The notes beneath the pieces were generated by a model that had not been told where the DNA came from, ran no database searches, and was given only the letters and a program-made list of their open reading frames with translations. From a virus, in UHGV virus genome UHGV-0302543: a DNA stretch of 23,700 nt; one strand, written 5' to 3'. Shown in pieces: positions 1-21,287 of this stretch. Both the position numbers and the translations under genes were made by a program. The first letter of the stretch is position 1; every line of letters begins with the position of its first letter.

Positions 1-136
1 TGGACAGCAACTCCGGCACCGTTTCCACATCCGCACCACCGGTGAGTCCCGTGCCGGTGACCGTGGCTGTCTGGTTGATGCCCGCCTGTGGTGTGATAAA
101 GGACAGGCGGGTTCCGGTCGGGGTATTTCCGGCGCG
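1..136 (-). CDS. baseplate J-like protein (Mu gp47-like), internal portion continuing beyond the window start
   Basis: Minus-strand frame reads RAGNTPTGTRLSFITPQAGINQTATVTGTGLTGGADVETVPELL, resembling the IPAGT region that follows the RKPA motif in baseplate J proteins; partial at window edge. Confidence 0.35.
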
Positions 137-142
137 CCCCGC

Positions 143-430
143 ACTTTCCCACTGGCGCAACTGATCACACAGACACAACAGGATATCAGCCAGCGCCTGC
201 CCGGTTCGCAGCCGGGCGTGAATGAAACCACCCTGAATGCCATTGCGTATGCACAGGCGGGGCTGTCAGCACAGGAGCATGAACATCTGGCCTGGATCTC
301 CCGGCAGATAATTCCGACAGAAGCTGATGAAGCCGAACTCCTGAAACACTGCGCATTCTGGGGTGTCATCCGTAAACCGGCTTCCCGCGCTGACGGACCG
401 GTACAACTGATGCTGACCACGGATGCAGGG
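143..430 (+). pseudogene. baseplate J-like (gp47-like) N-terminal region lying on the plus strand, opposite to all flanking tail genes; no canonical start
   Basis: Plus frame (track ORF 218..460 and upstream in-frame codons) reads TFPLAQLITQ...LPG...LNAIAYAQAGLSAQ...EADEAELLKHCAFWGVIRKPASRADGPVQLMLTTDAG, matching the baseplate J N-terminal signature; upstream in-frame codons contain no ATG/GTG/TTG. Confidence 0.45.
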
Positions 431-789
431 ATGCGATCATGCCCCACACGCATGGCATGACATACCACGGATGTGGCAGCACCGCTTTTATGCAGCCACG
501 CCAGCGCTTCATCAGCATAGGCCTGTGCACGGCTGACCACGGAGGACAGCGTCTTTTCACGGCTTAACAGCCAGAGACGGGAGCCAACGGGGCGCTCCCG
601 GAAACTGTCTCCCCACCATCCCCGCCTGTCACGAGTGCCGTCAGGGATTTCATCAGAATCCAGCGCCCGCCTGTCCGTAAACAGCGAAATCAGAACGGCC
701 GTCAGCAGACTGTCATCCGTCAGCAGGTCGGCACCGTTCAGTTGCAGCGAGCCGCACCCCTGATCCCATACAATTGCAATATCAGCCAT
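431..789 (-). CDS. Mu gp46-like baseplate protein; 3' end unresolved (no in-frame stop before the window start)
   Basis: ATG at 787-789 overlaps the gp45 stop (ATGGCTGA); translation MADIAIVWDQGCGSLQLNGADLLTDDSLLTAVLISLFTDRRALDSDEIPDGTRDRRGWWGDSF... is protein-like for about 120 codons, then degenerates into Cys/Arg-rich antisense-like sequence. Confidence 0.6.
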
Positions 790-1396
790 TCTCCGGTGCT
801 CCTGTCTTACTGCCTTTGCCGTTATCCTGATGCACATGACCGGAATACCGTATCCCTGCAATAACGGCATCCGACATTGTGAACAGTCCCTGAGATTTCC
901 CCGTACCATCAAGCGCGAAATTCCCCTTAACATGCAGGTTTTTATCCACCGTCACATTGCCCGTAAAGGTGGCTTCCGGCGTATCCACCCGCATCCCCTC
1001 GTCGGCGTAAATCTCCAGCATTTTGCATGTCACAATAATGCGACCATCCTTTGTTAACCGTATCCGGTGCCCCTCATGGTGATACACCCCCGTATCTCCG
1101 GCTTTGAGTCCGGTCGGACGGCTGCGCCGGTCTTCCACCACAAGCACCACAGTCTGATCCCGCTGTCCGCCCAGACAGGCAAAAAAGGTTTCTGCACCCG
1201 GCAGGGGAACGCTGATCTGCCCGTACTGCTGGGGGCGCTCCACATCATCAAAGGTTTCGCCGTCCATGCCGGTGAGCTGCACATTCTGCATTTTCAGTTC
1301 GTCATGTGTGCCGGTCAGAACGCCCCGGCCAAACAGCAGGCGAATACCGCGCGTTACCGGGGCAATCAGGCGGCTGAACACTTCATCATTCATCAA
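782..1396 (-). CDS. baseplate spike/assembly protein V (Mu gp45-like, gpV family)
   Basis: 204 aa; position between gp44 and gp46 homologs; gpV-like composition. Confidence 0.75.
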   Translation of the reverse strand: MMNDEVFSRLIAPVTRGIRLLFGRGVLTGTHDELKMQNVQLTGMDGETFDDVERPQQYGQISVPLPGAETFFACLGGQRDQTVVLVVEDRRSRPTGLKAGDTGVYHHEGHRIRLTKDGRIIVTCKMLEIYADEGMRVDTPEATFTGNVTVDKNLHVKGNFALDGTGKSQGLFTMSDAVIAGIRYSGHVHQDNGKGSKTGAPENG

Positions 1397-2510
1397 AGCT
1401 GATCCCCTGTTTTTTCATCTGCTGGCGAATAAAGGCATCAACATCGTCACCGGAACCACCCCGGCCCTTACTGTCCGGCTCTGCCGGAACGATAAAGCCG
1501 TCACGCGGTGCCAGTACCAGCCGGGTGACTTCCCCGTTCTGTTCATCCAGTAAAAACTCCACCTGACAGACCAGCAGTTCAGTCTGTTCTATACCGAAAC
1601 GCTGGGCCGAAACACCGGTCAGCAGATTGACATCCCATAACCGGCCATCATCCCGGAACCAGCCACGCACGGTGGCAGAAAACCGTTCTGAACGGGCAAT
1701 CGCACGGCGCATTTCACGCAGGGCACGCTGCCGTGCACCGGTGGTGTCTGTCTGTTGATCGGCGAGGATGATTTTCGGCCGGTAGCGGCCGATCTGCTCA
1801 TCACTGATGACGCCCACAGGTGCTGCCAGCCGGGCGGCGGACTCGCTGTCTCCCCGTTTGCCACCACCGCGCCCGTGTCCCCGGACACGGTATTCACTGT
1901 ATCGTCCTCGCCAGTCCGTGTTGTAATCGGCATCAAGCAGGTTATCTCCCAGCACCAGTCTGTCCGTCTGCTGGCTTCCTGCCTGGGTGAACACCAGATC
2001 GCCGTCAGCATTACTGGTCACCAGCACCCCGCGATGCCGGGCAGAACGGGTCAGCGCATCCGCCACGGTTTCTGAGTTTTCCAGCGTAAAAGAGCTGAAA
2101 GGGCGTGCAGCCGTGTCGTCGTTAACCTGCCAGCGCACAGCTATCCCGAAGGGCGCACATAAATCTGCGGCAATCTGTGCCAGCGTCCGGTTGCGCCACT
2201 GACTGCCGGGGTGGATGGCGGCACAGTCCACCAGATCGCCGGTTTTATCCCGGCCGCTGATGCTGATCTGATGACGGGTTGCACTGATCCGCTGACTGAC
2301 CTGATCCAGCCAGCCACTGATGACCGTCTGCCCGTTAATTCTGAGCGTCAGGGACTGACCGGTCCGCATGGCTGAGGGGATGCGCTCACCGGGCAGCATC
2401 AGCCCCAGTTCAAACGACCCGGCCAGATGCTCCAGCGAGCGACGGACGCTGACCGTCAGCCAGCCGGAAAAAATACTGCCACCGATATACAGTTCAATCC
2501 TGCTGCTCAC
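1386..2510 (-). CDS. baseplate hub protein (Mu gp44-like, P2 gpD-like)
   Basis: 374 aa, immediately downstream of the gp43 homolog; size and position match Mu gp44. Confidence 0.65.
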   Translation of the reverse strand: MSSRIELYIGGSIFSGWLTVSVRRSLEHLAGSFELGLMLPGERIPSAMRTGQSLTLRINGQTVISGWLDQVSQRISATRHQISISGRDKTGDLVDCAAIHPGSQWRNRTLAQIAADLCAPFGIAVRWQVNDDTAARPFSSFTLENSETVADALTRSARHRGVLVTSNADGDLVFTQAGSQQTDRLVLGDNLLDADYNTDWRGRYSEYRVRGHGRGGGKRGDSESAARLAAPVGVISDEQIGRYRPKIILADQQTDTTGARQRALREMRRAIARSERFSATVRGWFRDDGRLWDVNLLTGVSAQRFGIEQTELLVCQVEFLLDEQNGEVTRLVLAPRDGFIVPAEPDSKGRGGSGDDVDAFIRQQMKKQGISFDE

Positions 2511-3852
2511 TGATCACCTCCACGCTGCGGCCACCCGGAACAAAAACCGGATCGGGGATGTTGTTTCTGCGGACAAAATACTGCCAGCGGCGGCTGTTGC
2601 CGGTGGCACGGTACAGCGTGACCAGTGCCGGTTCGGTGGTTCGCACCATGACCTGAAAAGCACCGGGAAGATGAACACTCCGCGTGGTTAAATCTTCTGT
2701 CAGTGCAAGCCCTGCATCACGTAATGCAAGGGCGGTGCCGGTATGGCCCTGTGCGGACAGATCCAGTACCTGTTGTTCCATGGCATCACTCAAATCCCGG
2801 TTGATACGCTGCACATCGGCAGAACTTTCCAGCCAGGCCAGTCCACCCGCACGGTCAGTATCCTGAACGTGCGTTGTATTCTGCCGGATGACCTGATCCA
2901 GCAGTTTCCCGACCGTCTGCGCCTGCGACACCAGGGTTGCACTCTGCATGACGCTCCGCAGCAGACGGATATTTTTCTGTGCCGCAGGCGTCAGACCAAT
3001 CAGGCGCTGCGGATCATCCTGTTCGCTGAGGGTGTAACGCAGGGAAGAAAGTGTGCGGTACAGCTGCGGCATTGCCTGCTCTGTCATGCTGTCACGGTTT
3101 GTGGTCAGGCTGCCGGACGGCCTTCCTGTCTTCCCGGTCAGTGACAGGGAAGGATTGCCGGGCAGTCCGGTCAGCACAGCAAATATTCCGGCCAGAGATT
3201 CAGCCATGCGACGGGGCGCATTAATCAGGGCGGCGGCATTGCCTTTCAGGGCGGTAAAACTGGCCGTAAAGGCACTGACATCCTGCACAATCCCCATCCC
3301 TGAAACGGCATTCTCCAGCGCATCAATCTTATCGCTGATGGTGTCGGTCATGGCCTGTACATCATGCAGACCGTCTGAAATCACCGTCCAGCCGTCTGAA
3401 AGCGTGTTAAACAGCTGATTCATTGCTGAACCGCTTTTCTGCTCCAGCGCAGCTGCCGTATCTTCTGCCACCGAAGGGGCGGTATCGTCAATGGCGGGGA
3501 TCACGTTGATCGTGAACTCAACCGTTCCCTGCTCGCTGGCGTTATAACGGCTTTCAAAGCTGTTTATCAGCACGTTTAACGTGCCGTAATCCGGGTGCAT
3601 CAGTTCACCGGCACCGGGTGCACGCAGCGCATCACGCAGGCGGCTTCGCTGTGTCTGAAGATCGTCTCCGGTCACCAGAACCGTGAATGTGAACTCCGGG
3701 AGTTTTGGCCCCAGATCATCCGCACCGCCGCTTTCACGCAGTGGGTATTCACGGCGCACAATGTTACGTCCGCCCCGTTCCCGCTGCTCCTGATAAACCA
3801 GGAACGGTACGCCACGAAAGGAGCCACGCCCCGGCGTGTCAGTAGAGGCCAT
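2494..3852 (-). CDS. DNA circularization protein (Mu gp43 / P-like)
   Basis: 452 aa directly downstream of the tape measure gene; size, position and composition consistent with Mu gpP family. Confidence 0.65.
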   Translation of the reverse strand: MASTDTPGRGSFRGVPFLVYQEQRERGGRNIVRREYPLRESGGADDLGPKLPEFTFTVLVTGDDLQTQRSRLRDALRAPGAGELMHPDYGTLNVLINSFESRYNASEQGTVEFTINVIPAIDDTAPSVAEDTAAALEQKSGSAMNQLFNTLSDGWTVISDGLHDVQAMTDTISDKIDALENAVSGMGIVQDVSAFTASFTALKGNAAALINAPRRMAESLAGIFAVLTGLPGNPSLSLTGKTGRPSGSLTTNRDSMTEQAMPQLYRTLSSLRYTLSEQDDPQRLIGLTPAAQKNIRLLRSVMQSATLVSQAQTVGKLLDQVIRQNTTHVQDTDRAGGLAWLESSADVQRINRDLSDAMEQQVLDLSAQGHTGTALALRDAGLALTEDLTTRSVHLPGAFQVMVRTTEPALVTLYRATGNSRRWQYFVRRNNIPDPVFVPGGRSVEVISEQQD

Positions 3853-4642
3853 AGTTCCCTCCGTTCCAGACGTTCACATCCAGGCCATGCTGTGCGGTAT
3901 CATCCACATCAATACTGCGCGCCCGCCAGCCTTCAGGGGCCACAAGCTCTACCCGTGCGGCGGTTTTCGCGGTGGCCTGTCCGCCGTTTTCGTCACTGCT
4001 GCCACGCAGTTTCTGCCAGGCCTGCGTCAGCCAGCCCCCCAGATAATCACCGAGATAGCTGCCCACTGTGGAACCAATGGCAACCCCGACCGGACCGGCA
4101 GCCGCCCCCAGCGCGCCACCGGCGATACTTCCGGCAAGGGAACCCACGGCACCGGCTTTATCGGCTGCACTGGCGCTACTGTCCAGCAGTACAGGAGCCG
4201 CCATGGCACCGGCCCACAGGGCACCCCCACCCAGCCGACCGGCACCACGGAACAGCCCGGCAAAACGCCCCAGCCCCATGCGGTTTCCGGCCGCCGTTAC
4301 CAGACCACCGGCACGGCTCATCATACGACCGAAGAAGCCCTGTTTACCGGCGCTCTCCGCCAGCTGCTCACCGGCGGTCACGACGGTCGTGACACCCCGC
4401 CCGCGTCCGGGGCCGCGTTTTTTACGGCCGCGCACGGTTTTGCCGTCACCGCTGACCACCACATCCCCGCCGCCTGAGGCCAGGCCACCCGCAGGCCAGT
4501 TGGTGACCAGCACGGGCTGAACGGCAGCAGGATTTACCCCGGTAAGGAAATTCAGGAAGCGGCCAGCGCGTCCGGGCTGCGTTCCCGGCACAGTGGTCTG
4601 CGGTTTGCGGAAGGGCGACGTCAGCACGGAGGTCATCGCCAC
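3839..4642 (-). CDS. tail tape measure protein, C-terminal part (Gly-rich), separated from the N-terminal part by an inverted segment
   Basis: 267 aa; GTG start lies inside the left inverted-repeat copy; Gly/Ala-rich segment typical of tape measure C-termini. Confidence 0.7.
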   Translation of the reverse strand: MAMTSVLTSPFRKPQTTVPGTQPGRAGRFLNFLTGVNPAAVQPVLVTNWPAGGLASGGGDVVVSGDGKTVRGRKKRGPGRGRGVTTVVTAGEQLAESAGKQGFFGRMMSRAGGLVTAAGNRMGLGRFAGLFRGAGRLGGGALWAGAMAAPVLLDSSASAADKAGAVGSLAGSIAGGALGAAAGPVGVAIGSTVGSYLGDYLGGWLTQAWQKLRGSSDENGGQATAKTAARVELVAPEGWRARSIDVDDTAQHGLDVNVWNGGNYGLY

Positions 4643-4671
4643 AGTCTGAAAAAGAGCCTGAAAGGCTTCCT
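4625..4671. repeat. left repeat block in tape measure gene: 16-bp unit cacggaggtcatcgcc followed by 31-bp unit acagtctgaaaaagagcctgaaaggcttcct
   Basis: Exact reverse complements of both units occur at 4990..5036. Confidence 0.85.
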
Positions 4672-4989
4672 GGATTATGCTGATGCGGCACAGAAAAGCG
4701 GCTTACAGGATAAGCTGGCCACACAGACGGCCTCGGCCCTGAATCAGGGATTCGAGTATGCCAGAGACGCTGCAACCGGCTTTTACCGTGCCATTCAGAA
4801 AGTCAGGGAAACGCTTCAGGCACTGCGCGACGCCGGTTATGGCGATGCACTGGATCGTATTGGTCAGGGGGCGCAGACCGCCGCAAAATACCTGATGTAT
4901 ATGTATCTCGCCTCCCGCGCGCTGAAGGTGCTCAGGTTTGCGGGGGCGGGAGCATTACGTCTCGGCGCAACCCCCTTACGCTATAGTAT
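4672..4989 (+). other. inverted internal segment of the tape measure gene (coding sense on plus strand)
   Basis: Plus frame reads DYADAAQKSGLQDKLATQTASALNQGFEYARDAATGFYRAIQKVRETLQALRDAGYGDALDRIGQGAQTAAKYLMYMYLASRALKVLRFAGAGALRLGATPLRYS, helical and tape-measure-like, in frame with both flanking minus-strand parts once reverse-complemented. Confidence 0.75.
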
Positions 4990-5943
4990 GGCGATGACCT
5001 CCGTGAGGAAGCCTTTCAGGCTCTTTTTCAGACTGTCAAACGGTCCCTTTGCCATCACTTCACGGGCAAACTGATCCCAGACGTCGCCCATCATGGACGT
5101 CATTCCCGTCCAGGAATTCATGGCGTTTTTCTGGGCACCTTTTGCCTGTTCGGCCATCACCTGAAATAACAGGCGAATGCTGTCCGGCCCCAGTTTTCCT
5201 TTTTCGCCTTTCTCACGGATGAGCTTCTGGTTTACGCCCAGCTTATCGGCCAGTAACTGGTAAACGTTAATCCCGTATCCGGTCAGAATATTGGCGTCCG
5301 CTGCCTGGATACTCTGGCGGGCAAACATCTGTTTGAGTTGCAGGGACGCACCCTGTGCATCTGACAGTGACCAGCCGTGATAGCCGCCCTGATCCTGAAG
5401 CATGGTAATAAAGCGACGGGCTTCCCTGTCACTCATGCCAAACCCGCGACTGGAGGCGTATTCCTGCATAACCCCCGCCAGCCCCCAGGTGGTGTCTTTG
5501 GCGTTCTGTACTGCCCAGGCTTTCACTGCTTCCGTTTTTGCCTTATCGCCATGATTAATGGCGTTGAGACGCAGAATATAGTTCTCCATCTCTGCGGCCG
5601 GGCGGATAAAGGCTTTATTAAAACCGTAGACCGCAGCCCCTCCCGCCAGCATCCCGTAAAGGTTGCTTATCCGCCCGATGGTGCCGGTAATGCTGCCCTG
5701 CAGGCGGTCAAAATCTGACGTTACCGTGCGGATGCTGCCACGAACACCGGCAAGCGTTCGCTGCATACGGGAGCCGACAAGTTCTGTTTCCTGACCGGCC
5801 CGGCGGGCTGCATTTCCAAGACCACCCAGGCCTGTCCTGCCGGAACGGGAGAACGCCCCCAGCTCCTGTGACCACTGGCGGGATTTGGCGGAAATATTGC
5901 CGAGTAAATCGACAATCAGGGAGGCTTTCAGGTTTTTTGCCAT
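4981..5943 (-). CDS. tail tape measure protein, N-terminal part, truncated by TAG at 4981 just inside the inverted segment
   Basis: 320 aa, helical composition, immediately downstream of the chaperone gene. Confidence 0.7.
   Translation of the reverse strand: MAKNLKASLIVDLLGNISAKSRQWSQELGAFSRSGRTGLGGLGNAARRAGQETELVGSRMQRTLAGVRGSIRTVTSDFDRLQGSITGTIGRISNLYGMLAGGAAVYGFNKAFIRPAAEMENYILRLNAINHGDKAKTEAVKAWAVQNAKDTTWGLAGVMQEYASSRGFGMSDREARRFITMLQDQGGYHGWSLSDAQGASLQLKQMFARQSIQAADANILTGYGINVYQLLADKLGVNQKLIREKGEKGKLGPDSIRLLFQVMAEQAKGAQKNAMNSWTGMTSMMGDVWDQFAREVMAKGPFDSLKKSLKGFLTEVIAIL
4990..5036. repeat. right repeat block: ggcgatgacctccgtg followed by aggaagcctttcaggctctttttcagactgt
   Basis: Perfect reverse complements of the two left units, each inverted in place with order preserved. 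Confidence 0.85.
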
Positions 5944-6070
5944 GGGTTACTGCTTCGTTCTGAGAATTTTTTCGGTCTGTCGGCAGTGCCGGTAAAGCTG
6001 CGATAAGGGGAGGTTAAGCGCCCACTCCGGGCCGCTTTTTGTCACCATCCCCAGCACAATTGCGGCTTCT

Positions 6071-6547
6071 TCAATCTGATCCCGGCACTGCATCTGGTCG
6101 CCCCCGTTCAGCGACCAGCTTTCCTGCCATCGCGGAATCAAGCAGGCTTACCGCCGCCATCAGACGGGAGAGATCGCGCTCGCTGAGCTGTCCGATCTGA
6201 CGCGGAGATAATGGCCCCTCAATCTGGCCGACAGCGGCAATCTGACGGCGCAGCAGCGCAATGCCGCGCAGTGCCGGAGAGGCCACCAGAACCGGACCGT
6301 TTCGGGTTTCCATAAGACGCTCGGCCTCACTCTCCGCATCAATGCTGTCTTTCGCCGTCAGTTCGCGGAAGGTGACGCGGTATTCACGGGATTCACCGAA
6401 CGGCAGGCCGTCGAGCAGATCCACATAGCCGTTCACCAGCTGTTCAGCCAGCCCGGCGGTGCGGGGATCGCCGTCTTCAAGTGCATCCCGGATAGCCTCC
6501 ATCACGGCCTCGTCAGAAACCGCCGTTTTTTTCTTACGTGTGCTCAT
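6071..6547 (-). CDS. tail assembly chaperone (Mu gp41-like); overlapping ORF 5947..6141 may be a frameshift extension
   Basis: 158 aa between tube and tape measure genes; the overlapping ORF is in the +1 frame and ends 4 nt before the tape measure start; a G5 run (plus-strand C5 at about 6101-6105) lies in the overlap. Confidence 0.55.
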   Translation of the reverse strand: MSTRKKKTAVSDEAVMEAIRDALEDGDPRTAGLAEQLVNGYVDLLDGLPFGESREYRVTFRELTAKDSIDAESEAERLMETRNGPVLVASPALRGIALLRRQIAAVGQIEGPLSPRQIGQLSERDLSRLMAAVSLLDSAMAGKLVAERGRPDAVPGSD

Positions 6548-6561
6548 TACATTTTTCCTGA

Positions 6562-6927
6562 TTACTGGACACGGGTACTGGTGGCGCTGGCGAACTTCGC
6601 GGAGATATCACCGCCACCGTCAAGCGAGGCCGGTTCACTGCTCCAGGCCTTCGTCATCATGTGGACTTCACCGGTATCGGCCACAAACTCAATCGTGACC
6701 GCAGTCCAGGTGTTGATTTCATCGGCAGCCGGTGAACCTTCTCCGCCAGCCGGAAATTTACAGTCCAGCGTCGCCTCACGGGGTTTCTCGCGATAGCCAT
6801 AGACTTTCGCGCCTTTCACCACTTCACGCTCATAGCCGGACGGGGAGAACGTGGCCCCCTCAAGGGTGTCGTACTCCTGTCCGTTCACACGGATGGTGGC
6901 CGTGCCCTGATACTGTTTTCCGCTCAT
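6562..6927 (-). CDS. tail tube protein (Mu gp40 / M-like)
   Basis: 121 aa directly downstream of the sheath gene. Confidence 0.75.
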   Translation of the reverse strand: MSGKQYQGTATIRVNGQEYDTLEGATFSPSGYEREVVKGAKVYGYREKPREATLDCKFPAGGEGSPAADEINTWTAVTIEFVADTGEVHMMTKAWSSEPASLDGGGDISAKFASATSTRVQ

Positions 6928-6935
6928 GCCTTACC

Positions 6936-8438
6936 TCACAAAATGAAACGGATCTGTGCTGCCAGGAAGCGGAACTGGTTAACCAGATCCGGCGTGCATA
7001 ACACGTCAAGGCGGTTTCGATCTGACGTATTACGCTCCACAAGCAGATTCTTTTTAAACGTGTCCAGATTTTCGACCAGCCCGAGTTCCACCCACTCTTC
7101 ACCCAGCGAAATTAACTGAAGCTTCATGATCTCCGGCGTCACGATATTCTGACCGGCACGAACGGGCGTCCCGTCATCAGCCAGTTTATGGCGCGGAAAA
7201 CGTTGAGTGATGAAAGTGCGCAGGGAATAACGCAGATATGACAGGGTGTAGATGGTTTCCACATCCAGATAGCTGGGATCACTTTCGCCGTACACGTTCT
7301 GGCGATACATCGTCACCTGACGCTCAATCTGAACCATATCCCCGGCCGCCACACTGACCGTGGCAATCCCTCCCCACAGCAGACTGTTACGCTCTTCACG
7401 CGTCAGACGATCGGCCGGGGCCGGGGCCATGCGTGACGGAAGCGCCAGCGTCTGAAGCGGACGCGCAGGATCTGCTCCCAGAGAGGGTGCACAGGTGGCA
7501 CAGACCGCCGCTGCCCAGAGGTAATCCGGTTCAGGGGCTTTGGGAATGGATGTGCAGGTCGCCAGAAAATCATTGCGTTTTGCCCCGAATGCCTGCACCT
7601 CACCAAACGTGCCGGTATGTGCCAGCCACAGCACGCCGTCAGACATTTTGGCCGGTCCCCAGCGTTTCAGAAGTTCATCACTGATGATTTTCAGGTTTGC
7701 ATCGTCCTTGTAGGGCATGACAACATAGTTGTACTGGCGATCCCCCATTCCGGCCACACTTCGGGTGATATCGGGATTGCGGGCTCTTGAGGAGGGAAAG
7801 CCTGTCTGGGGCGTCAGCCCTGACGGCAGGGTTTCACCGTCGTGATAATTCAGGCGCAGATCGTGCACAGAGCATTCACCAATGAAGCGGGCGCTCACTC
7901 CCATACTTCCTTTCAGACCGCCTGCATTACTGCCATCAACAACCGCAGATACAGCTGTGAATGGCGCATCAGTATCCTTATTTATCAGGGCAACAAGCGC
8001 ATCAATGATAGCTTTTCCTTTTTGTCCGGCTTTTACGGGCAGCGCATAGCGTCGTCCACCAATATAGATGCAGAGCAAACCATCGGTCGCAGCCGTACCG
8101 GTAAGGTTAAAGGCGGCGGCATTTGCCCCGCCTGTTCCGGCCCCCTGCGCAATAGCATACAGTTCCGCATCAGGATTGATGGCAATAAATTCAGCCACCA
8201 TCAGAGCGATCATGGAGCCACGCCCCCAGAGCTCCACAGCCTGAGAGGCGCGAGTGATCCTGACCGGAACATCCAGCACACCGGTACCGTCCACAGCATT
8301 CTCTTTCATTCTCGCCTGACCAAACAGCAGCACACACTGACGCTGTGCCGGGGTGCCGGTGACCGCCATGGAGTTATTAAACTCAACCCCAATCAGCGGT
8401 ATACGGCGGTCATTACCGATCCCGTCAAAATTAATCAT
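6936..8438 (-). CDS. contractile tail sheath protein (Mu gp39 / L-like)
   Basis: 500 aa, sheath-like size and composition, upstream of the tube gene. Confidence 0.85.
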   Translation of the reverse strand: MINFDGIGNDRRIPLIGVEFNNSMAVTGTPAQRQCVLLFGQARMKENAVDGTGVLDVPVRITRASQAVELWGRGSMIALMVAEFIAINPDAELYAIAQGAGTGGANAAAFNLTGTAATDGLLCIYIGGRRYALPVKAGQKGKAIIDALVALINKDTDAPFTAVSAVVDGSNAGGLKGSMGVSARFIGECSVHDLRLNYHDGETLPSGLTPQTGFPSSRARNPDITRSVAGMGDRQYNYVVMPYKDDANLKIISDELLKRWGPAKMSDGVLWLAHTGTFGEVQAFGAKRNDFLATCTSIPKAPEPDYLWAAAVCATCAPSLGADPARPLQTLALPSRMAPAPADRLTREERNSLLWGGIATVSVAAGDMVQIERQVTMYRQNVYGESDPSYLDVETIYTLSYLRYSLRTFITQRFPRHKLADDGTPVRAGQNIVTPEIMKLQLISLGEEWVELGLVENLDTFKKNLLVERNTSDRNRLDVLCTPDLVNQFRFLAAQIRFIL

Positions 8439-8680
8439 TGCGGTTTCTCCTTATCGGATGCCGGTTGGGCGACCGGTTTTTCTGTCGCAGTCGTTGCATC
8501 CGCAGATACAGCCGGAGCCTCTTCAGCGGCTTTTTCAGCCTGAATGACATCGCCGTCATCAAGACGCCGACACCAGAACGGCGTGAAGGTTTTTTCCTCC
8601 CCCTCCTGTGCCAGCGGGCGCATTGTGTCGGGATCACGAATCAGGCGTCCCGGCGCGGGTTTGATAAAGATGGTTTTCAT
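8435..8680 (-). CDS. Mu gp38-like small protein (DUF2635-like)
   Basis: 81 aa starting MKTIFIKPAPGRLIRDPDT; GGAGGA RBS upstream; start overlaps the sheath start region. Confidence 0.55.
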   Translation of the reverse strand: MKTIFIKPAPGRLIRDPDTMRPLAQEGEEKTFTPFWCRRLDDGDVIQAEKAAEEAPAVSADATTATEKPVAQPASDKEKPQ

Positions 8681-8701
8681 TTACAGTTCCTCCGGCGGTT
8701 C

Positions 8702-8726
8702 GACCGCCGTTGTCGTGTTCCCCGGC
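8702..8726. repeat. left copy of a perfect 25-bp inverted repeat (gaccgccgttgtcgtgttccccggc)
   Basis: Exact reverse complement at about 9058..9082; coordinates +/-1. Confidence 0.85.
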
Positions 8727-9088
8727 TGGTCAGTCACTGGGTGTTCTACGTCATCGGCGACATGCTCAACGGGCGTGAGGCCAGCCGTCCCGGACTGTAT
8801 CAGATTGTGGCCCGGCTGATTGCCGTGCTTAACGGCTTCAGAACAGAAAAAACCTCACCGCTTTACTTTGAAAAGGCGGTCAACGGTTACACCGAAACCC
8901 AGGCGAACAGTGGGGCCGTGATGTATGCGCTTTATTTCTCCTGCGAGGAAATGATCGCGCCACTGACGGATATCAGCTCGCTGGACGACTTCCTGCGTCA
9001 TTACGAAACCTTTGTGGAGCCGCCCGGTACGCCGCCGTTTGAGGCACATATTGATTTGCCGGGGAACACGACAACGGCGGTCCGTTAA
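8727..9088 (+). pseudogene. body of the gp37-like head gene in inverted orientation (sense on plus strand)
   Basis: Plus frame reads VSHWVFYVIGDMLNGREASRPGLYQIVARLIAVLNGFRTEKTSPLYFEKAVNGYTETQANSGAVMYALYFSCEEMIAPLTDISSLDDFLRHYETFVEPPGTPPFEAHIDLPGNTTTAVR*; every flanking gene is minus-strand. Confidence 0.75.
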
Positions 9089-9209
9089 TCAGCATGGTGC
9101 GCAGTACGCTGTCGCTCCAGTCGCCGGGATGCGTGTCAACAGACACAAGTTCATTCCCGAAATACTCACGGATACGGGCGATGTATGCCTGTTCGGTTTC
9201 CGTAATCAT
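8973..9209 (-). pseudogene. gp37-like N-terminal fragment (first 42 codons plausible, then reads into the repeat and antisense of the inverted body)
   Basis: ATG overlaps the gp36 stop (ATATGA); MITETEQAYIARIREYFGNELVSVDTHPGDWSDSVLRTMLIN followed by low-complexity sequence and stop. Confidence 0.65.
9058..9082. repeat. right copy of the 25-bp inverted repeat (gccggggaacacgacaacggcggtc)
   Basis: Perfect reverse complement of 8702..8726. Confidence 0.85.
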
Positions 9210-9625
9210 ATGAAGCCCTTCTGGTTGCGCCCGAATACCGCCGCATCAGACTGAACCTGTGGTAAATCCCCGGATTCAGGGGCCGCACCGTTCGTATCCA
9301 CACCTACCGGCACATTGCCGTTCATGACATCTTTCAGCCAGGCCAGCGCTTCACGGTAACGGTCACGCGCCTGATCGGAGGCTCGCTGATCGCACAGGTA
9401 ATAAAAGGCAATCGCGCAACAGTGCTGAACAAGAACAGCCGGGATAACCTCCAGCGGCAGCGTGTAACGGGCGGACAGATAGCTGTCGATAAGGGCTGAC
9501 GCATCTGTCAGCGCCCGGTTCAGCTTGCGCGTGTCCAGCTCATCCGAACGGGGCACTGCCAGTAACGGCCTGAGCAAATCCTCGCGGTAACGCGCCCGCA
9601 TATCGCTTTCAGTGGCGTAATTCAT
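9206..9625 (-). CDS. Mu gp36-like protein (DUF1320-like)
   Basis: 139 aa starting MNYATESDMRARYREDLLRPLL; position between gp35-like and gp37-like genes. Confidence 0.6.
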   Translation of the reverse strand: MNYATESDMRARYREDLLRPLLAVPRSDELDTRKLNRALTDASALIDSYLSARYTLPLEVIPAVLVQHCCAIAFYYLCDQRASDQARDRYREALAWLKDVMNGNVPVGVDTNGAAPESGDLPQVQSDAAVFGRNQKGFI

Positions 9626-9993
9626 GCGCGGGCCTTTTTCGCCTGTTTCGCTTTGTTACCGGTCTTTTTCCGGGGAGCATCCTGTCCGGCTTCGGCTTCG
9701 GCTTCGGCTTCGGCTAAATCTGTACCGGCCACTGCATGAACCACACCCGCCACGCTCCCCGCATCATCAGCAGGCGTCTGTAGTATTCGCACAGTGAGGC
9801 ATGGCTCCGCCTCCAGTCGGGCAAGCTGCTCCGGGGTGACCTCAACCTGCTGACGTCCACGCGTGAACAGGAACCCCGCACGACGAAACGCCGAACGACT
9901 GCAACGCACTTCTGCCAGCACCGTGACAGAATTGTCACCACTGACCTGAAGACCTGAATCATCTGTTGCTGCCACAGTGTGATGTTCATTCAT
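9622..9993 (-). CDS. hypothetical head-region protein (Mu gp35 position) with AEAEAEAE repeat and Lys/Arg-rich C-terminal tail
   Basis: 123 aa; GGAGGG RBS upstream of the ATG; contains the hexanucleotide tandem repeat. Confidence 0.45.
   Translation of the reverse strand: MNEHHTVAATDDSGLQVSGDNSVTVLAEVRCSRSAFRRAGFLFTRGRQQVEVTPEQLARLEAEPCLTVRILQTPADDAGSVAGVVHAVAGTDLAEAEAEAEAGQDAPRKKTGNKAKQAKKARA
9688..9715. repeat. tandem hexanucleotide repeat (ggcttc), about 4.5 copies, inside the gp35-like CDS
   Basis: Read directly: ggcttcggcttcggcttcggcttcggct; encodes (AE)n on the minus strand. Confidence 0.85.
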
Positions 9994-10984: not shown

Positions 10985-12108
10985 TATTGCATTTCCTCTT
11001 TCATTTTCAGGAATTCGGCTTCGGTTTTACCCAGAAGATGGGCGGCGGCGATATCTTCAGCCGACAGCGAGGCGGTGGCGGTCTTTTTATCCGGCACGGT
11101 CACGGTGTCGGTCTGAAGGCCGGTCAGGGCTGCAACCGGCTGTCGGGCGTCAAGCTGTGCAGAAAGTGCAGTAACACCAATCTGCCCACCCAGCTGTTCC
11201 AGATAGCCGCGTTCGCTTTTGAAGATGCGCCCTTCGGACTCGGCCTTGTCCAGCACCTGCTCCAGCGTGGTGCTGCCGTGCTGTGCTGACAGCGCAACGT
11301 ATTCGGTACGCAGGGCGTTATACGTTTCAATGGGCACATATTTCGTCAGATCAATACTGCCGCCAGCCGGTGTACCTTTTGCGGTTTCCAGCTCTGCCGA
11401 CAGACTGGCGACCTGTGTTTTCAGGTTGTCGTGTGCATCCGCACGGGTTTTGATCCCGGTGAGGGCAGACAGCGCCGCCGTGCCCAGCTCCGGCGTAAAT
11501 TCGTCACCGTCAGCCACGGTCAGACCGAGCGCCGTCAGCAACTGGCGTAATTGCTCATTCATGGAGGTATCCTTTAAAGGAGGGTTTAAGGCGTTATAAA
11601 GGTCATCCGCCGACAGCGCGGCGACAGGATTCATGCCGGTCAGACCGGGGTCACCGGTAATAGCCAGCATCCGAAGTTCGACAGGTTCGCCGGTGTTCTC
11701 GTCATAGCCAATCACCGGTGAAAACCAGGGGAATTCGTTATTACGCAGATGTTCAAGGGCCGGAGGGTTCCACTTCGGGCGCACCTCGAAGCCACGCTCT
11801 TCACTGAAGCGGAAGTTTTCCGGTGAAGCCGTCACAAAACCGGCAGCCGGTGCCTGATGCCCCTTAATCAGGGTCTGGTGGTTGTAGTCAATTTTTACCG
11901 GCTGATTGAGCGCCACAACCCGGGATACCATGCGCTCAACGGTCGCACGGTTAATCAGCCAGCCTTCAGCCGGTTTTTCCGGGCGACCGTCACGGGCCTT
12001 TACCCGACCGGCTGGCATGATCTGACACCAGTCACCGTCCCCGTCTGCGGACAGGCTGATGGCATTCAGAATGGCATAAGCAAGTTTGGGCGTGTTTTTC
12101 GTCTTCAT
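10984..12108 (-). CDS. head protease/scaffold protein (Mu gp32 / I-like)
   Basis: 374 aa; N-terminal protease-like region and C-terminal helical scaffold-like region. Confidence 0.75.
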   Translation of the reverse strand: MKTKNTPKLAYAILNAISLSADGDGDWCQIMPAGRVKARDGRPEKPAEGWLINRATVERMVSRVVALNQPVKIDYNHQTLIKGHQAPAAGFVTASPENFRFSEERGFEVRPKWNPPALEHLRNNEFPWFSPVIGYDENTGEPVELRMLAITGDPGLTGMNPVAALSADDLYNALNPPLKDTSMNEQLRQLLTALGLTVADGDEFTPELGTAALSALTGIKTRADAHDNLKTQVASLSAELETAKGTPAGGSIDLTKYVPIETYNALRTEYVALSAQHGSTTLEQVLDKAESEGRIFKSERGYLEQLGGQIGVTALSAQLDARQPVAALTGLQTDTVTVPDKKTATASLSAEDIAAAHLLGKTEAEFLKMKEEMQ

Positions 12109-12758: not shown

Positions 12759-12880
12759 ATTGCCTCCGTGAAACTACCTGGTTAAAATAAAAGCAGGTCG
12801 GTGTACTCTTAACTGGTAAAGCGGCGCCTGATGGTTTTTTCCTGAGGGATGTTTATGCGGGTTCGACCCCCGCCACCGAC
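12759..12880 (-). other. structured intergenic region between F and G (nested stem-loops followed by a T-run on the minus strand)
   Basis: 9-bp long-range complement aggtcggtg / caccgacct encloses the hairpin gcggg-ttcgacc-cccgc; minus strand continues CTGCTTTTATTTT. Confidence 0.3.
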
Positions 12881-14206
12881 CTACAATTCACCCTCCAGTA
12901 ATTCCAGCTTTCCACCGCGCAGATCATCAAGTAATGCCTCCTTTTTGACTCTGTAGGCATTAATCACCACATCCAGCTTATCCGGCTGACGTTTCACACT
13001 ATAAGGCGCATTGACGGCAATCTTTGCCGTTCCGTCACGGGTTTCAGTGATGTAAAGCAGATTCTGATGGACATGATCCCACAGCACGGCATCAGGCGCG
13101 GCCAGCATTGCCGGTAATCGCCCGAAATCCTCCGGCGTCAGGGCAATGCCGTCATTCTGATGTTTCACGCTGTCCGCATGGAGCACATTTTTACCGCTCA
13201 TCGCCAGCAGGCGGGCCGGTGGCGTTCCCGTCCGGCTTTCCACCGCCTGCGCAATACTTTCGGTCATAAAGCCCAGCGTGCGGATATCGTGACCACCTCG
13301 CCGGGTCTTCATGATGTTTTTTGCCCAGATGCGGAACGCCAGCTGCCGCTCCGGGCTGTTGTTCATCTCCTGAACCACCATTTCCCGTAACGCCGGGCTT
13401 TTCACCTCGATCAGTTTACGGATCAGCGCCTGGTCTGTGCCGAACGCCGCCGAACCGGGGTTATATGACCAGCCCACATCCGGTGTCATGGTTCTGGTGC
13501 CATCTGAATATGTGGTCACCGGCATTTCTCTGACTTCTCCGGTCTGCTTATCCACGCCAGCCTCAACATTGCGGGTGGAGAGATGATCCTGACCGGATGA
13601 AACGGATAACCCCATTGCATCCAGACGGGCCTGAGATAATGGCCGGACACGGCAGCGGCAGTTCCAGCCATTGGGCGGGTAGTGTGTATTCCAGAACGGA
13701 TCGTCATAGCGGAATACCAGCCCGTTAAAGGCGGAATGTGCCGGGCGGGTGCGGCTGTCCATCACCGCCACATACTGCCAGAACGGATGCGTGTCCGTGT
13801 TGTTCATCATCTGCGTGTAACGCCCGGCATTGTAAGCCACACGGGTGTTCACGTTGTAAATCAGCGCCAGACGGCGGGGACTGCCCAGCTGCACTTCTTC
13901 CGCGTTACCGGCACTGTCCACCACAATCTGTTTTCCCCACCATCCCAGCTTTTGCAGGCGGGGTGTCAGCGTGCGAATAAATGCTTTCTGTGAAATCCCC
14001 TCATCAACAGCACGCTGCACTTCCGCCTGTAGTGTGGTCAGTACGTCCAGGCGTGCCACTTTTGCCGCCGTGAATGAACGGGCATGAACATCCGCGTCTG
14101 TTTCGAACCAGTTCCAGCTGATATGCGCCCCTTTGGCGCGGAAGTATGCCACCGCCTCTTTTGAGGGAAGCGTGGCGGCATAACCCAGATCAATCCCCTG
14201 TGCCAT
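12881..14206 (-). CDS. head morphogenesis protein (Mu gp30 / F-like)
   Basis: 441 aa containing the F-family GWNCRCRV motif; directly downstream of the portal gene. Confidence 0.8.
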   Translation of the reverse strand: MAQGIDLGYAATLPSKEAVAYFRAKGAHISWNWFETDADVHARSFTAAKVARLDVLTTLQAEVQRAVDEGISQKAFIRTLTPRLQKLGWWGKQIVVDSAGNAEEVQLGSPRRLALIYNVNTRVAYNAGRYTQMMNNTDTHPFWQYVAVMDSRTRPAHSAFNGLVFRYDDPFWNTHYPPNGWNCRCRVRPLSQARLDAMGLSVSSGQDHLSTRNVEAGVDKQTGEVREMPVTTYSDGTRTMTPDVGWSYNPGSAAFGTDQALIRKLIEVKSPALREMVVQEMNNSPERQLAFRIWAKNIMKTRRGGHDIRTLGFMTESIAQAVESRTGTPPARLLAMSGKNVLHADSVKHQNDGIALTPEDFGRLPAMLAAPDAVLWDHVHQNLLYITETRDGTAKIAVNAPYSVKRQPDKLDVVINAYRVKKEALLDDLRGGKLELLEGEL

Positions 14207-20840: not shown

Positions 20841-21101
20841 ATGAAACAACCTCCATCTTTGCTTTTATCGTGCCCACCAGAACTGGCCCATGAACTCAAT
20901 GATCTGGCGAAAGAGTATAAACTTACAAATCATAATATAGAAGCAGCAACACTTAGTGCTGCCGGAAGCGATATTGTATTGATCGTTCTGGCCGCAGCTT
21001 CATGCGATGGGTTCTGGCAGGCATTAGCCAGTATGTTTCAGACGTGGTTACATCGTAAACCAACAAAACAAACACCCCCCGGAAAAGAAAGTTATTCGTA
21101 G
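20841..21101 (+). CDS. hypothetical protein of AT-rich moron, upstream part (ORF split at a C6 tract; +1 frame continues to the stop at 21262-21264)
   Basis: AAGGAAG RBS 7 nt upstream of the ATG; plus-strand orientation opposite to the phage genes; low-GC codon usage; the +1 frame reads ...VIRSVIVRSWEHYQETTKQTEFYNFDADELAKLIALYEKPDETIGCIIPSETEIQEK with no start codon of its own. Confidence 0.5.
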   Translation: MKQPPSLLLSCPPELAHELNDLAKEYKLTNHNIEAATLSAAGSDIVLIVLAAASCDGFWQALASMFQTWLHRKPTKQTPPGKESYS

Positions 21102-21249
21102 CGTCATTGTTCGTAGCTGGGAACACTATCAGGAGACAACTAAACAAACTGAATTTTATAACTTTGATGCTGATGAGCTGGCTAAATTGATAGCGTTATA
21201 TGAAAAACCAGATGAAACAATTGGTTGCATAATCCCGTCAGAAACGGAA

Positions 21250-21287
21250 ATTCAGGAAAAATAAAATCCCGCACTGTGGCGGGATTT
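21250..21287. terminator. second copy of the terminator hairpin (aaatcccgc-actgtg-gcgggattt), directly after the gemA-like stop on the minus strand and after the moron ORF on the plus strand
   Basis: Same stem as at 20543..20566 with one loop difference; A-run on one side and T-run on the other, so potentially bidirectional. Confidence 0.6.

What the first reader, a model, noticed from the sequence alone, without database searches (positions are those of the whole stretch)
1..789. Probable third inversion: gp47 N-terminal region reads on the plus strand and gp46 has no stop codon
gp46 starts normally (ATG overlapping the gp45 stop) and looks genuine for about 120 codons, but its frame then stays open with Cys/Arg-rich sequence all the way to position 1. 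Over the same DNA the plus strand reads a convincing baseplate J N-terminal region (TFPLAQLITQ...LPG...AIAYAQAGLSAQ...AFWGVIRKPASRADGPVQLMLTTDAG), and the downstream continuation of that protein (NTPTGTRLSFITPQAGINQTATVTGTG...) is back on the minus strand at 1-136. A segment of roughly 135-430 therefore appears inverted relative to both flanks. It is similar in size to the two repeat-bracketed inversions, but I could not find a perfect inverted repeat here; quasi-palindromes ggcgcgcc (about 131-138) and catgcc...ggcatg (about 438-459) lie at the inferred junctions. The gp46 3' end with its stop and the gp47 start codon are not cleanly recoverable.
Basis: partly seen in the sequence, partly recalled or inferred. 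Interest (0 to 1): 0.55.

Follow-up and report, generated by a model that had tools for sequence, protein, structure and literature searches.

The report
Broken baseplate genes: flipped 283-bp block
In an otherwise intact Mu-like prophage, a 283-base piece of the gp47 baseplate gene sits backwards with about 95 bases missing on each side, which destroys gp46 and gp47; it is a one-off scar or a sequence-assembly error, not a genetic switch.

Summary
Near-identical intact relatives place the inverted block at window 150-432, which is gp47 codons 6-101 read on the plus strand. It lies between gp46 codon 119 (junction 432|433) and gp47 codon 134 (junction 149|150).

95 bp are absent on one side (gp46 codons 120-145, its stop, and the gp47 start). 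99 bp are absent on the other (roughly gp47 codons 101-134). That is why no stop or start can be recovered and no bracketing repeat exists.

The same kind of lesion occurs twice more, in the tape measure gene and in gp37. All six junctions show 0-1 bp of apparent homology, as random pasting would give. Block ends overlap or fall short of the flanks by 17-99 bp.

None of 34 fetched relatives or 5426 complete E. coli genomes shares any of the three. No gix-like site lies at a breakpoint, so this is not invertase switching.

Origin is unresolved without reads. I put a reconstruction artefact at about 0.5 and an in-cell double strand switch or break-rejoin at about 0.4. Interest is low.

The parts
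433..789 (-). gp46 (Mu-type baseplate wedge protein), codons 1-119 of 145. It is truncated exactly at a codon boundary by junction 432|433.
   Evidence: Identical to L005 gp46 residues 1-119. Pfam PF07409 GP46 115.7 bits, profile positions 1-84 of 101.
150..432 (+). Inverted block: gp47 (baseplate J) nt 17-302, i.e. most of codon 6 through codon 100 plus two bases of codon 101, reading on the opposite strand to all neighbouring genes. Base 149 could belong to the block or to the left flank.
   Evidence: Window 146-432 matches L005 11060-11346 on the opposite strand to the flanks, with 1 mismatch, which is the base at 148 outside the true block. tblastn finds gp47 residues 6-101 at 146-433 on the plus strand.
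1..149 (-). gp47 from the third base of codon 134 onward. It runs off the window start, has no start codon and is out of frame with gp46.
   Evidence: 100% identical to L005 11446-11594. Pfam Baseplate_J 36.1 bits, profile positions 73-119. Frame analysis.
149..150 (.). Left junction. 99 bp of ancestral sequence (L005 11347-11445, about gp47 codons 101-134) are missing here. 1 bp (C149) is assignable to either side.
   Evidence: junction alignment.
432..433 (.). Right junction. 95 bp of ancestral sequence (L005 10965-11059) are missing here: gp46 codons 120-145 with the stop, and the gp47 ATG with codons 1-5. 0 bp of shared sequence.
   Evidence: junction alignment.
782..1396 (-). gp45 (baseplate spike/assembly protein V), intact, 204 aa. 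It served as the anchor for finding relatives.
   Evidence: The exact protein is carried on 25 contigs that were read. The 10 places shown all have the normal 145-aa gp46 and 360-aa gp47.
4642..5005 (+). Second lesion of the same kind, in the tape measure gene. The inverted block is L005 6408-6772. Both of its ends are also retained in the flanks, which creates perfect inverted repeats 4625-4641/4989-5005 (17 nt) and 4641-4671/5006-5036 (31 nt).
8727..9082 (+). Third lesion of the same kind, in gp37 (DUF1834). The inverted block is L005 2383-2742. A 25-nt inverted duplication is created at 8702-8726/9058-9082, and 45 bp are deleted at the other end.

Best explanation
SHOWN: The window carries a Mu-like transposable prophage whose genes read on the minus strand. 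Relative to intact copies that are 99.9-100% identical, a 283-bp block (gp47 codons 6-101) has been put back the wrong way round. 95 bp are lost on the gp46 side and 99 bp on the gp47 side.

Consequences read directly from the sequence: gp46 keeps 119 of 145 codons and then runs into antisense gp47 and out-of-frame gp47. gp47 has no start codon, lacks codons 1-5 and about 101-134, and has its N-terminal third on the wrong strand. Both baseplate genes are dead, so the element cannot build a baseplate.

The lesion is one of three of the same type and size (blocks of 283, 364 and 356 bp) within 9 kb of tail genes. All six joins use no homology. The block ends either overlap the flanks by 17-31 bp or fall 45-99 bp short of them.

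INFERRED: This is a homology-independent, non-conservative, one-off block reversal, not a programmed inversion. Its most likely origin is non-biological: short pieces of about 300-365 bp (read, fragment or small-contig size) laid in the wrong orientation when the sequence was reconstructed by assembly or gap closure, or some other editing of the record. I put that at about 0.5. A real cellular event is the close second, at about 0.4 (first rival below).
For: Structure: map the block, both junctions and both deletions against L001, L002 and L003-L012.

Not programmed:
- No gix-like sequence lies at any of the 12 ancestral breakpoints. The best match anywhere has 11 of 26 mismatches, and there is no shared motif.
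- Bases are lost or gained at every junction.

Private to this sequence:
- 0 of 228 matching records in 5426 complete E. coli genomes cover the region in one place.
- The best whole-window hits reach only 96% coverage, which equals the window minus the three blocks.
- 34 fetched copies, about 0.6 Mb, contain no small inversion outside the bona fide G segment.
- Four of the six junction 30-mers were searched in public collections and none was found: J1L in IMG/VR, the GTDB representatives and the JGI metagenomes; J1R in IMG/VR only; J2R in IMG/VR and the metagenomes; J3L in IMG/VR and the GTDB representatives. The intact 30-mer is found 4 times in IMG/VR.
- The chimeric 320-aa tape-measure ORF is not on record among 153 billion gene positions.

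Pointing to pasting rather than to the ordinary mutational spectrum:
- Apparent microhomology at the six junctions is 1, 0, 1, 0, 1, 0. Simulated random joins give a mean of 0.70, with P(0)=0.56 and P(1)=0.28.
- The blocks are 100% identical to relatives.
- The collinear 8 kb differs from L005 by only 2 substitutions and no indel, yet carries three complex rearrangements.
- All other prophage genes compared in the window match the relative's proteins full-length, apart from one accessory ORF with a homopolymer frameshift.
- Tail-gene lesions give the host no obvious selective benefit (inference).
Against: - There are no runs of N and no collinear 'sloppy' joins elsewhere in the window, which a crude concatenation of contigs should also produce. 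3 of 3 discontinuities are inversions.
- I cannot name the assembler or pipeline, and I have no reads or coverage.
- The geometry also fits a biological double strand switch exactly: forward to point 1, jump ahead to the other strand, copy back, jump ahead again.
- Absence of the junctions from public collections is weak evidence if the source record was simply withheld from those collections.
Confidence: 0.5

Rival explanations
1. A real in-cell rearrangement. During one abnormal replication or repair episode (stalled-fork or break-induced-type synthesis, or breakage and rejoining of a short excised piece), the nascent strand switched to the complementary strand about 335-405 nt ahead. It copied back 283-364 nt and then switched back ahead. 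This happened three times within 9 kb and left a recently inactivated, tail-less prophage.
For: - All three events fit the four-point local template-switch geometry (L005 coordinates): event 1 ...10964 | rc(11060-11346) | 11446...; event 2 ...6438 | rc(6408-6772) | 6756...; event 3 ...2337 | rc(2383-2742) | 2718....
- The inverted copy always comes from the same locus it replaces.
- Local template switches producing in-place inversions were first described in bacteria and span tens to hundreds of bp (PMC9435742).
- Event 2, with inverted duplication at both ends, is also what two staggered breaks with fill-in and flipped religation would give (inference).
- The phage family is active: the same prophage sits at different chromosomal sites in different strains.
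Against: - 0-1 bp of homology at all six switch points, indistinguishable from random, whereas polymerase re-priming normally needs some pairing.
- The blocks are at or above the upper end of described local template switches.
- Three rare events sit beside only 2 substitutions in 8 kb.
- There is no recurrence in 34 relatives or 5426 genomes.
- No selective reason to hit only tail genes.
Confidence: 0.4
2. Amplification chimera. The DNA was amplified by multiple displacement amplification, or a similar strand-displacing step, before sequencing. [quoted passage not shown]
For: More than 85% of MDA chimeras are inverted sequences with intervening deletions, and intramolecular local events are favoured (PMC1855051). 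That matches event 1 and one side of event 3.
Against: - Over 70% of MDA junctions show 2-21 nt of complementarity. Here 0 of 6 junctions have 2 nt or more.
- Each event needs two matched switches.
- Chimeras are normally outvoted in a consensus.
Confidence: 0.05
3. Programmed site-specific inversion: a Gin/Hin/Cin-type serine invertase, or another invertase, flips this block as a switch.
For: - Relatives encode a Gin-like recombinase and a genuine invertible G segment a few kb beyond the window start.
- Gin-type enzymes can use secondary sites. L013/L016 show such a case.
Against: - No inverted repeat brackets the block.
- No gix-like site at any breakpoint.
- 95 + 99 bp are lost, which conservative recombination cannot do.
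- The opposite orientation is the only one seen in all relatives.
- The result is two dead genes in either orientation.
Confidence: 0.02
4. No rearrangement: gp46 is genuinely a longer protein here, collinear through 1-430, and the plus-strand 'gp47' reading is a chance ORF.
For: The gp46 frame is open to position 1.
Against: - gp46 is 145 aa in the relatives fetched where that gene was called.
- Pfam GP46 covers only residues 28-113.
- The plus-strand DNA is 100% identical to gp47 of relatives.
- The open antisense frame is one of three; the other two carry stops.
Confidence: 0.01

Closest known systems
Bacteriophage Mu baseplate genes 46 and 47 (Pfam PF07409 GP46; PF04865/PF26078/PF26079 Baseplate_J), as in E. 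coli Mu-like prophages such as NZ_AP045179.1 3254321-3255840
   Same: Same gene order (gp43-gp44-gp45-gp46-gp47). gp45 is identical, gp46 codons 1-119 are identical, and the gp47 fragments are 100% identical at DNA level to L005.
   Different: The gp46 C-terminus and stop, the gp47 start and about gp47 codons 101-134 are missing. gp47 codons 6-101 are on the opposite strand.
[quoted passage not shown]
   Same: In-place inversion of a nearby stretch, with two reciprocal switches inside a few hundred bp and variable loss or duplication at the ends.
   Different: The blocks of 283-364 bp are at or above the upper end of the sizes described. There is no quasi-palindrome and no microhomology at any of the six switch points. 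Three events lie in 9 kb.
Gin/gix G-segment inversion of Mu and secondary-site ('quasi-site') inversions of Gin/Cin invertases
   Same: Both are DNA inversions inside a Mu-type tail gene region. Relatives carry the real switch, and L013/L016 carry one secondary-site inversion.
   Different: There is no gix-like site, no bracketing repeat, the event is non-conservative, and only a single orientation is seen among relatives.
Mis-oriented short contigs or gap fills, and amplification chimeras, in sequence reconstruction (e.g. MDA chimeras, Lasken and Stockwell 2007, PMC1855051)
   Same: Homology-free joins, block size near read or fragment length, ends that overlap or fall short of neighbours, several events in one record, and none in any other record.
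   Different: There are no Ns, no collinear bad joins and no read evidence available. MDA junctions usually show 2-21 nt of complementarity, which is absent here.

Membership tests
Phage GP46 (PF07409), Mu gp46 baseplate wedge protein | Significant match to the family profile | tested here: met
   115.7 bits against a cutoff of 28.6, residues 28-113. Residues 1-119 are identical to the gp46 of L005.
Phage GP46 (PF07409), Mu gp46 baseplate wedge protein | Complete protein (about 145 aa) ending in a stop that overlaps the gp47 ATG | tested here: not met
   Homology ends at codon 119. Profile positions 85-101 are unmatched. The stop and the overlap with gp47 are deleted.
Baseplate J / Mu gp47 (PF04865) | Match to the family profile | tested here: met
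   Window 2-148 minus strand: 36.1 bits, profile positions 73-119. The inverted block scores only 15.6 bits, below the cutoff of 21.1, at profile positions 3-32. DNA is 100% identical to annotated gp47 genes.
Baseplate J / Mu gp47 (PF04865) | One continuous ORF with a start codon on the strand of the operon | tested here: not met
   Codons 1-5 and about 101-134 are absent. Codons 6-101 are on the opposite strand.
Gin/Hin/Cin-type invertible DNA segment | Inverted repeats carrying about 26-bp gix/hix-type crossover sites at both borders | tested here: not met
   No inverted repeat brackets 150-432. The best gix match in window 1-9500 or in the ancestral region has 11 of 26 mismatches, and none lies at a breakpoint. 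The real gix sites of relatives score 3 and 6 mismatches. The Mu gix query sequence was taken from memory.
Gin/Hin/Cin-type invertible DNA segment | Conservative exchange: no bases gained or lost | tested here: not met
   95 and 99 bp are lost at the two junctions. The other two events gain 17-31 bp or lose 45 bp.
Gin/Hin/Cin-type invertible DNA segment | Both orientations present among copies or populations | tested here: not met
   Only the ancestral orientation is seen in the other copies. By contrast the true G segment is flipped in 6 of the 24 copies compared. Read-level heterogeneity could not be tested.
Local template-switch mutation (four-point model) | A reverse-complement copy of adjacent sequence replaces the local sequence, with two switches within hundreds of bp | tested here: met
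   Points 10964 / 11346 / 11060 / 11446 in L005 coordinates. The other two events are analogous. Definition taken from PMC9435742.
Local template-switch mutation (four-point model) | Pairing (microhomology or a quasi-palindrome) that lets the 3' end re-prime at the switch points | tested here: not met
   0-1 bp at all six junctions, equal to the random expectation.
Assembly or amplification artefact | Junctions unsupported by reads, or supported only by chimeric reads | not testable with these tools
   No reads or assembly metadata are available. Indirect evidence only: the lesions are private to this sequence, homology-free, and three occur in one record.
MDA chimera | 2-21 nt complementarity at most junctions (over 70%) | tested here: not met
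   0 of 6 junctions have 2 nt or more. Frequency taken from PMC1855051.

The most novel reading that the evidence does not exclude
The three lesions are real and arose in a single episode of low-fidelity, bubble-type (break-induced-like) replication through the tail region of a Mu-like prophage. In that episode the nascent strand repeatedly switched to the displaced complementary strand a few hundred nucleotides ahead and back again, without needing homology. This would be a small-scale bacterial or phage analogue of chromoanasynthesis. The uniform 280-365 bp scale would then report the size of the single-stranded bubble.
Probability: 0.1. Interest if true: 0.55.

Novelty: already known. Interest (0 to 1): 0.18.

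Why it matters
For annotation, gp46 and gp47 here should be called disrupted or pseudogenes. The 263+-codon open frame should not be called a long 'gp46', and the prophage should be scored as unable to make tails (gp46/47, tape measure and gp37 are all broken).

For interpretation, the perfect inverted repeats around the two sister inversions should not be read as invertase sites or a phase-variable switch. They are by-products of the rearrangement.

If reads prove the junctions real, three homology-free in-place inversions in 9 kb of an otherwise pristine prophage would be an unusual mutational signature in E. coli and worth a short note. If not, it is a flag on the quality of the source assembly.

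Tried and rejected
1. Looked for the source, or any second carrier, of the junctions. Four of the six junction 30-mers were scanned against IMG/VR, and subsets of them against the GTDB species representatives and the JGI metagenomes. The chimeric 320-aa tape-measure ORF was looked up. Contigs carrying the exact gp45, FluMu_N and gp36 alleles were fetched. Only intact arrangements were found, and the source was not identified.

2. Tested Gin/gix involvement by scoring the Mu gix sequence (from memory) against the window and the ancestral breakpoints. Rejected.

3. Looked for any shared motif at the 12 ancestral breakpoints by eye. None.

4. They are ancestral collinear sequence, so rejected.

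5. Asked whether small inversions are recurrent in this phage family. They are not, which argues against a phage-encoded or family-typical process.

6. Considered MDA chimeras. The geometry fits but the junction complementarity does not.

7. Considered a clean inversion planted in silico. A pure reverse-complement operation would not delete 95 + 99 bp or duplicate 17-31 bp, so a simple version is rejected. A more elaborate manipulation cannot be excluded.

8. Did not use structure prediction or the large protein searches. DNA identity of 99.7-100% to annotated genes made them unnecessary.

Full report
**What the window is.** The window is a Mu-like transposable prophage of E. coli, with its genes on the minus strand. 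It runs from inside gp47 (position 1) through gp46, gp45, gp44, gp43, tape measure, tube, sheath, head, lysis and middle genes. The best complete-genome relative is NZ_AP045179.1 (L002), at 99.0% identity over 96% of the window. Draft assemblies carrying the identical gp45 protein, for example L005 (GCA_025621545.1), are 99.9-100% identical over the first 9 kb. The same prophage sits next to different host genes in different strains, so the family is mobile.

**Checking the observation.** The minus-strand ORF starting at ATG 789 equals gp46 for exactly 119 codons (window 789-433). It then reads Cys/Arg-rich sequence with no stop down to position 1.
- The plus strand of 146-433 translates to gp47 residues 6-101.
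- The minus strand of 2-148 translates to gp47 residues 135-183.
- Pfam agrees. GP46 scores 115.7 bits but covers only profile positions 1-84 of 101. Baseplate_J matches positions 73-119 on the minus-strand piece, and positions 3-32 (sub-threshold) on the plus-strand piece.

**Exact anatomy.** Coordinates below are in L005, read in the gene direction.
- The window reads ...10964 | reverse complement of 11060-11346 | 11446....
- In window coordinates the junctions are 432|433 and 149|150.
- L005 10965-11059 (95 bp) is absent. It holds gp46 codons 120-145, the stop, the overlapping gp47 ATG and gp47 codons 1-5.
- L005 11347-11445 (99 bp) is also absent. It holds the last base of gp47 codon 101 through most of codon 134.
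- The net loss is 198 bp, so the gp46 and gp47 frames keep their ancestral offset and no in-frame fusion arises.
- Of the three antisense frames of the block, only the one entered from gp46 happens to be open. That is why the ORF looks endless.
- If the left flank is like L005, the chimeric ORF would end after 290 codons.
- The GGCGCGCC at 131-138 and the CATGCC...GGCATG at 438-459 are ordinary collinear gp47 and gp46 sequence, present unchanged in intact relatives. They lie 11 and 6 bp from the junctions and are not involved.

**The two sister lesions.** The same comparison resolves the other two inversions.
- In the tape measure gene the window reads ...6438 | rc(6408-6772) | 6756.... Here 31 and 17 bp are present twice in inverted orientation, which creates perfect inverted repeats 4641-4671/5006-5036 and 4625-4641/4989-5005.
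- In gp37 the window reads ...2337 | rc(2383-2742) | 2718.... Here 45 bp are lost and 25 bp are duplicated in inverted orientation (8702-8726/9058-9082).
- In intact relatives each of these 'repeat' sequences occurs once. The repeats are therefore products of the rearrangement, not substrates for it.
- Every other prophage gene compared in the window matches the relative's protein over its full length. The one exception is an accessory ORF with a homopolymer frameshift.

**What kind of process.**
- All six junctions have 0 or 1 bp that could belong to either side. Twenty thousand simulated random joins in the same sequence give a mean of 0.70 bp, with P(0)=0.56 and P(1)=0.28. No homology was used.
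- The blocks themselves are 100% identical to relatives.
- The block ends overlap the flanks by 17-31 bp or fall 45-99 bp short of them.
- No gix-like sequence and no common motif occurs at the 12 ancestral breakpoints. The genuine gix sites of relatives are recovered by the same scan.

Conservative site-specific inversion is therefore excluded. So is homologous or microhomology-guided exchange.

**How singular it is.**
- None of 228 matching records in 5426 complete E. coli genomes covers window 1-1400 in one place.
- The best whole-window coverage is 96%, which is the window minus the three blocks.
- The 34 fetched copies (about 0.6 Mb of aligned prophage) show strand flips only at the true G segment, plus one Gin secondary-site inversion.
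- Junction 30-mers are absent from IMG/VR, the GTDB representatives and the JGI metagenomes wherever they were scanned. Not every junction was scanned in every collection. The intact 30-mer is found four times in IMG/VR.
- The chimeric 320-aa tape-measure ORF is not on record.
- The collinear 8 kb differs from L005 by only 2 substitutions and no indel. Three complex rearrangements beside almost no point mutations is not the normal mutational spectrum.

**Origin.** Two readings remain.

*(a) Reconstruction artefact.* Pieces of read, fragment or small-contig size were laid in the wrong orientation, with ends that overlap or fall short of their neighbours.
- This explains the homology-free joins, the uniform size, the clustering in one record, the absence elsewhere and the lack of any divergence.
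- Against it, there are no Ns and no mis-joined collinear pieces, and I cannot name the pipeline.

*(b) A real double strand switch or break-and-rejoin.*
- The geometry matches the four-point local template-switch model, which was first described in bacteria and acts over tens to hundreds of bp (PMC9435742).
- Event 2 is also what staggered breaks with fill-in and flipped religation would give.
- Against it stand the complete lack of priming homology, block sizes at or above the upper end of those described, three events at once, no recurrence, and no selective rationale for hitting only tail genes.

MDA-type chimeras share the 'inverted with intervening deletion' form. However, over 70% of them show 2-21 nt of junction complementarity (PMC1855051), against 0 of 6 here.

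My estimates are about 0.5 for (a), about 0.4 for (b), and about 0.1 for the rest. Only reads or PCR can decide.

**Comparison with known things and novelty.** The genes are ordinary Mu-type gp46 and gp47, and they fail the 'complete ORF' test. The event works like a local template-switch or a mis-oriented insert. It is not a member of the Gin/gix class, because three defining features were tested and not met. Nothing here is a new kind of system.

**Verdict.** The refinements are the two flanking deletions, the exact junctions and the irrelevance of the palindromes. Interest is low (0.18). It would rise only if reads show that three homology-free in-place inversions really arose together in one prophage.

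Noticed in passing
L013 12925-12945 (also L016; 14 similar places not shown); compare L014 12890-12980 and L002 6377-6402: In a widespread set of assemblies the whole distal tail module (about 7.4 kb) is inverted. One end is at the right gix site and the other is inside the sheath gene. The join '...GAATATGGAGGT|TATCGATAAAGG' shares the GAGGT core with gix. This looks like a conservative Gin inversion at a secondary (quasi-gix) site that truncates the sheath gene.
   Followed up: partly
window 21070-21075 (plus-strand ORF about 20841-21261): A run of six C where all four complete E. coli genomes carrying this AT-rich accessory gene have five. This frameshifts a 140-aa hypothetical protein. It is either a sequencing-type homopolymer error or a private or phase-variable mutation.
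   Followed up: partly
window 18834: One extra T in a T-run in the spacer between the TraR-like gene and lysC, relative to L002.
   Followed up: no
window 9622-9993 (minus): The FluMu_N / HI1506-related head-region protein ends in an Ala-Glu repeat whose length varies among relatives: 123 to 141 aa across L003-L036.
   Followed up: no
L002 4960-6394 (outside the window, beyond its left end): The genuine invertible G segment has 179-nt inverted-repeat arms next to a serine recombinase gene. It is found in both orientations among relatives, flipped in L001, L004, L005, L007, L008 and L012.
   Followed up: yes
window 1-149 versus 150-4629: Mosaicism among relatives. The first 149 bp are only 87.8% identical to L001/L002 but 100% identical to L003-L012. 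The tape measure region 4929-5005 is also divergent from L002.
   Followed up: partly
window about 12797-12881 (equivalent of L002 20979-21063): RefSeq annotates a 'tRNA-OTHER' between the virion morphogenesis and head morphogenesis genes in L002. ARAGORN finds no tRNA anywhere in the window.
   Followed up: partly
L018 13928-14767 (CP075665.1) and L035 (UGCV01000008.1): Other copies show ordinary decay. L018 lacks most of the tape measure gene; only a 74-aa ORF remains. L035 has split or shortened MuF, tube and Gp41 ORFs suggestive of frameshifts.
   Followed up: no
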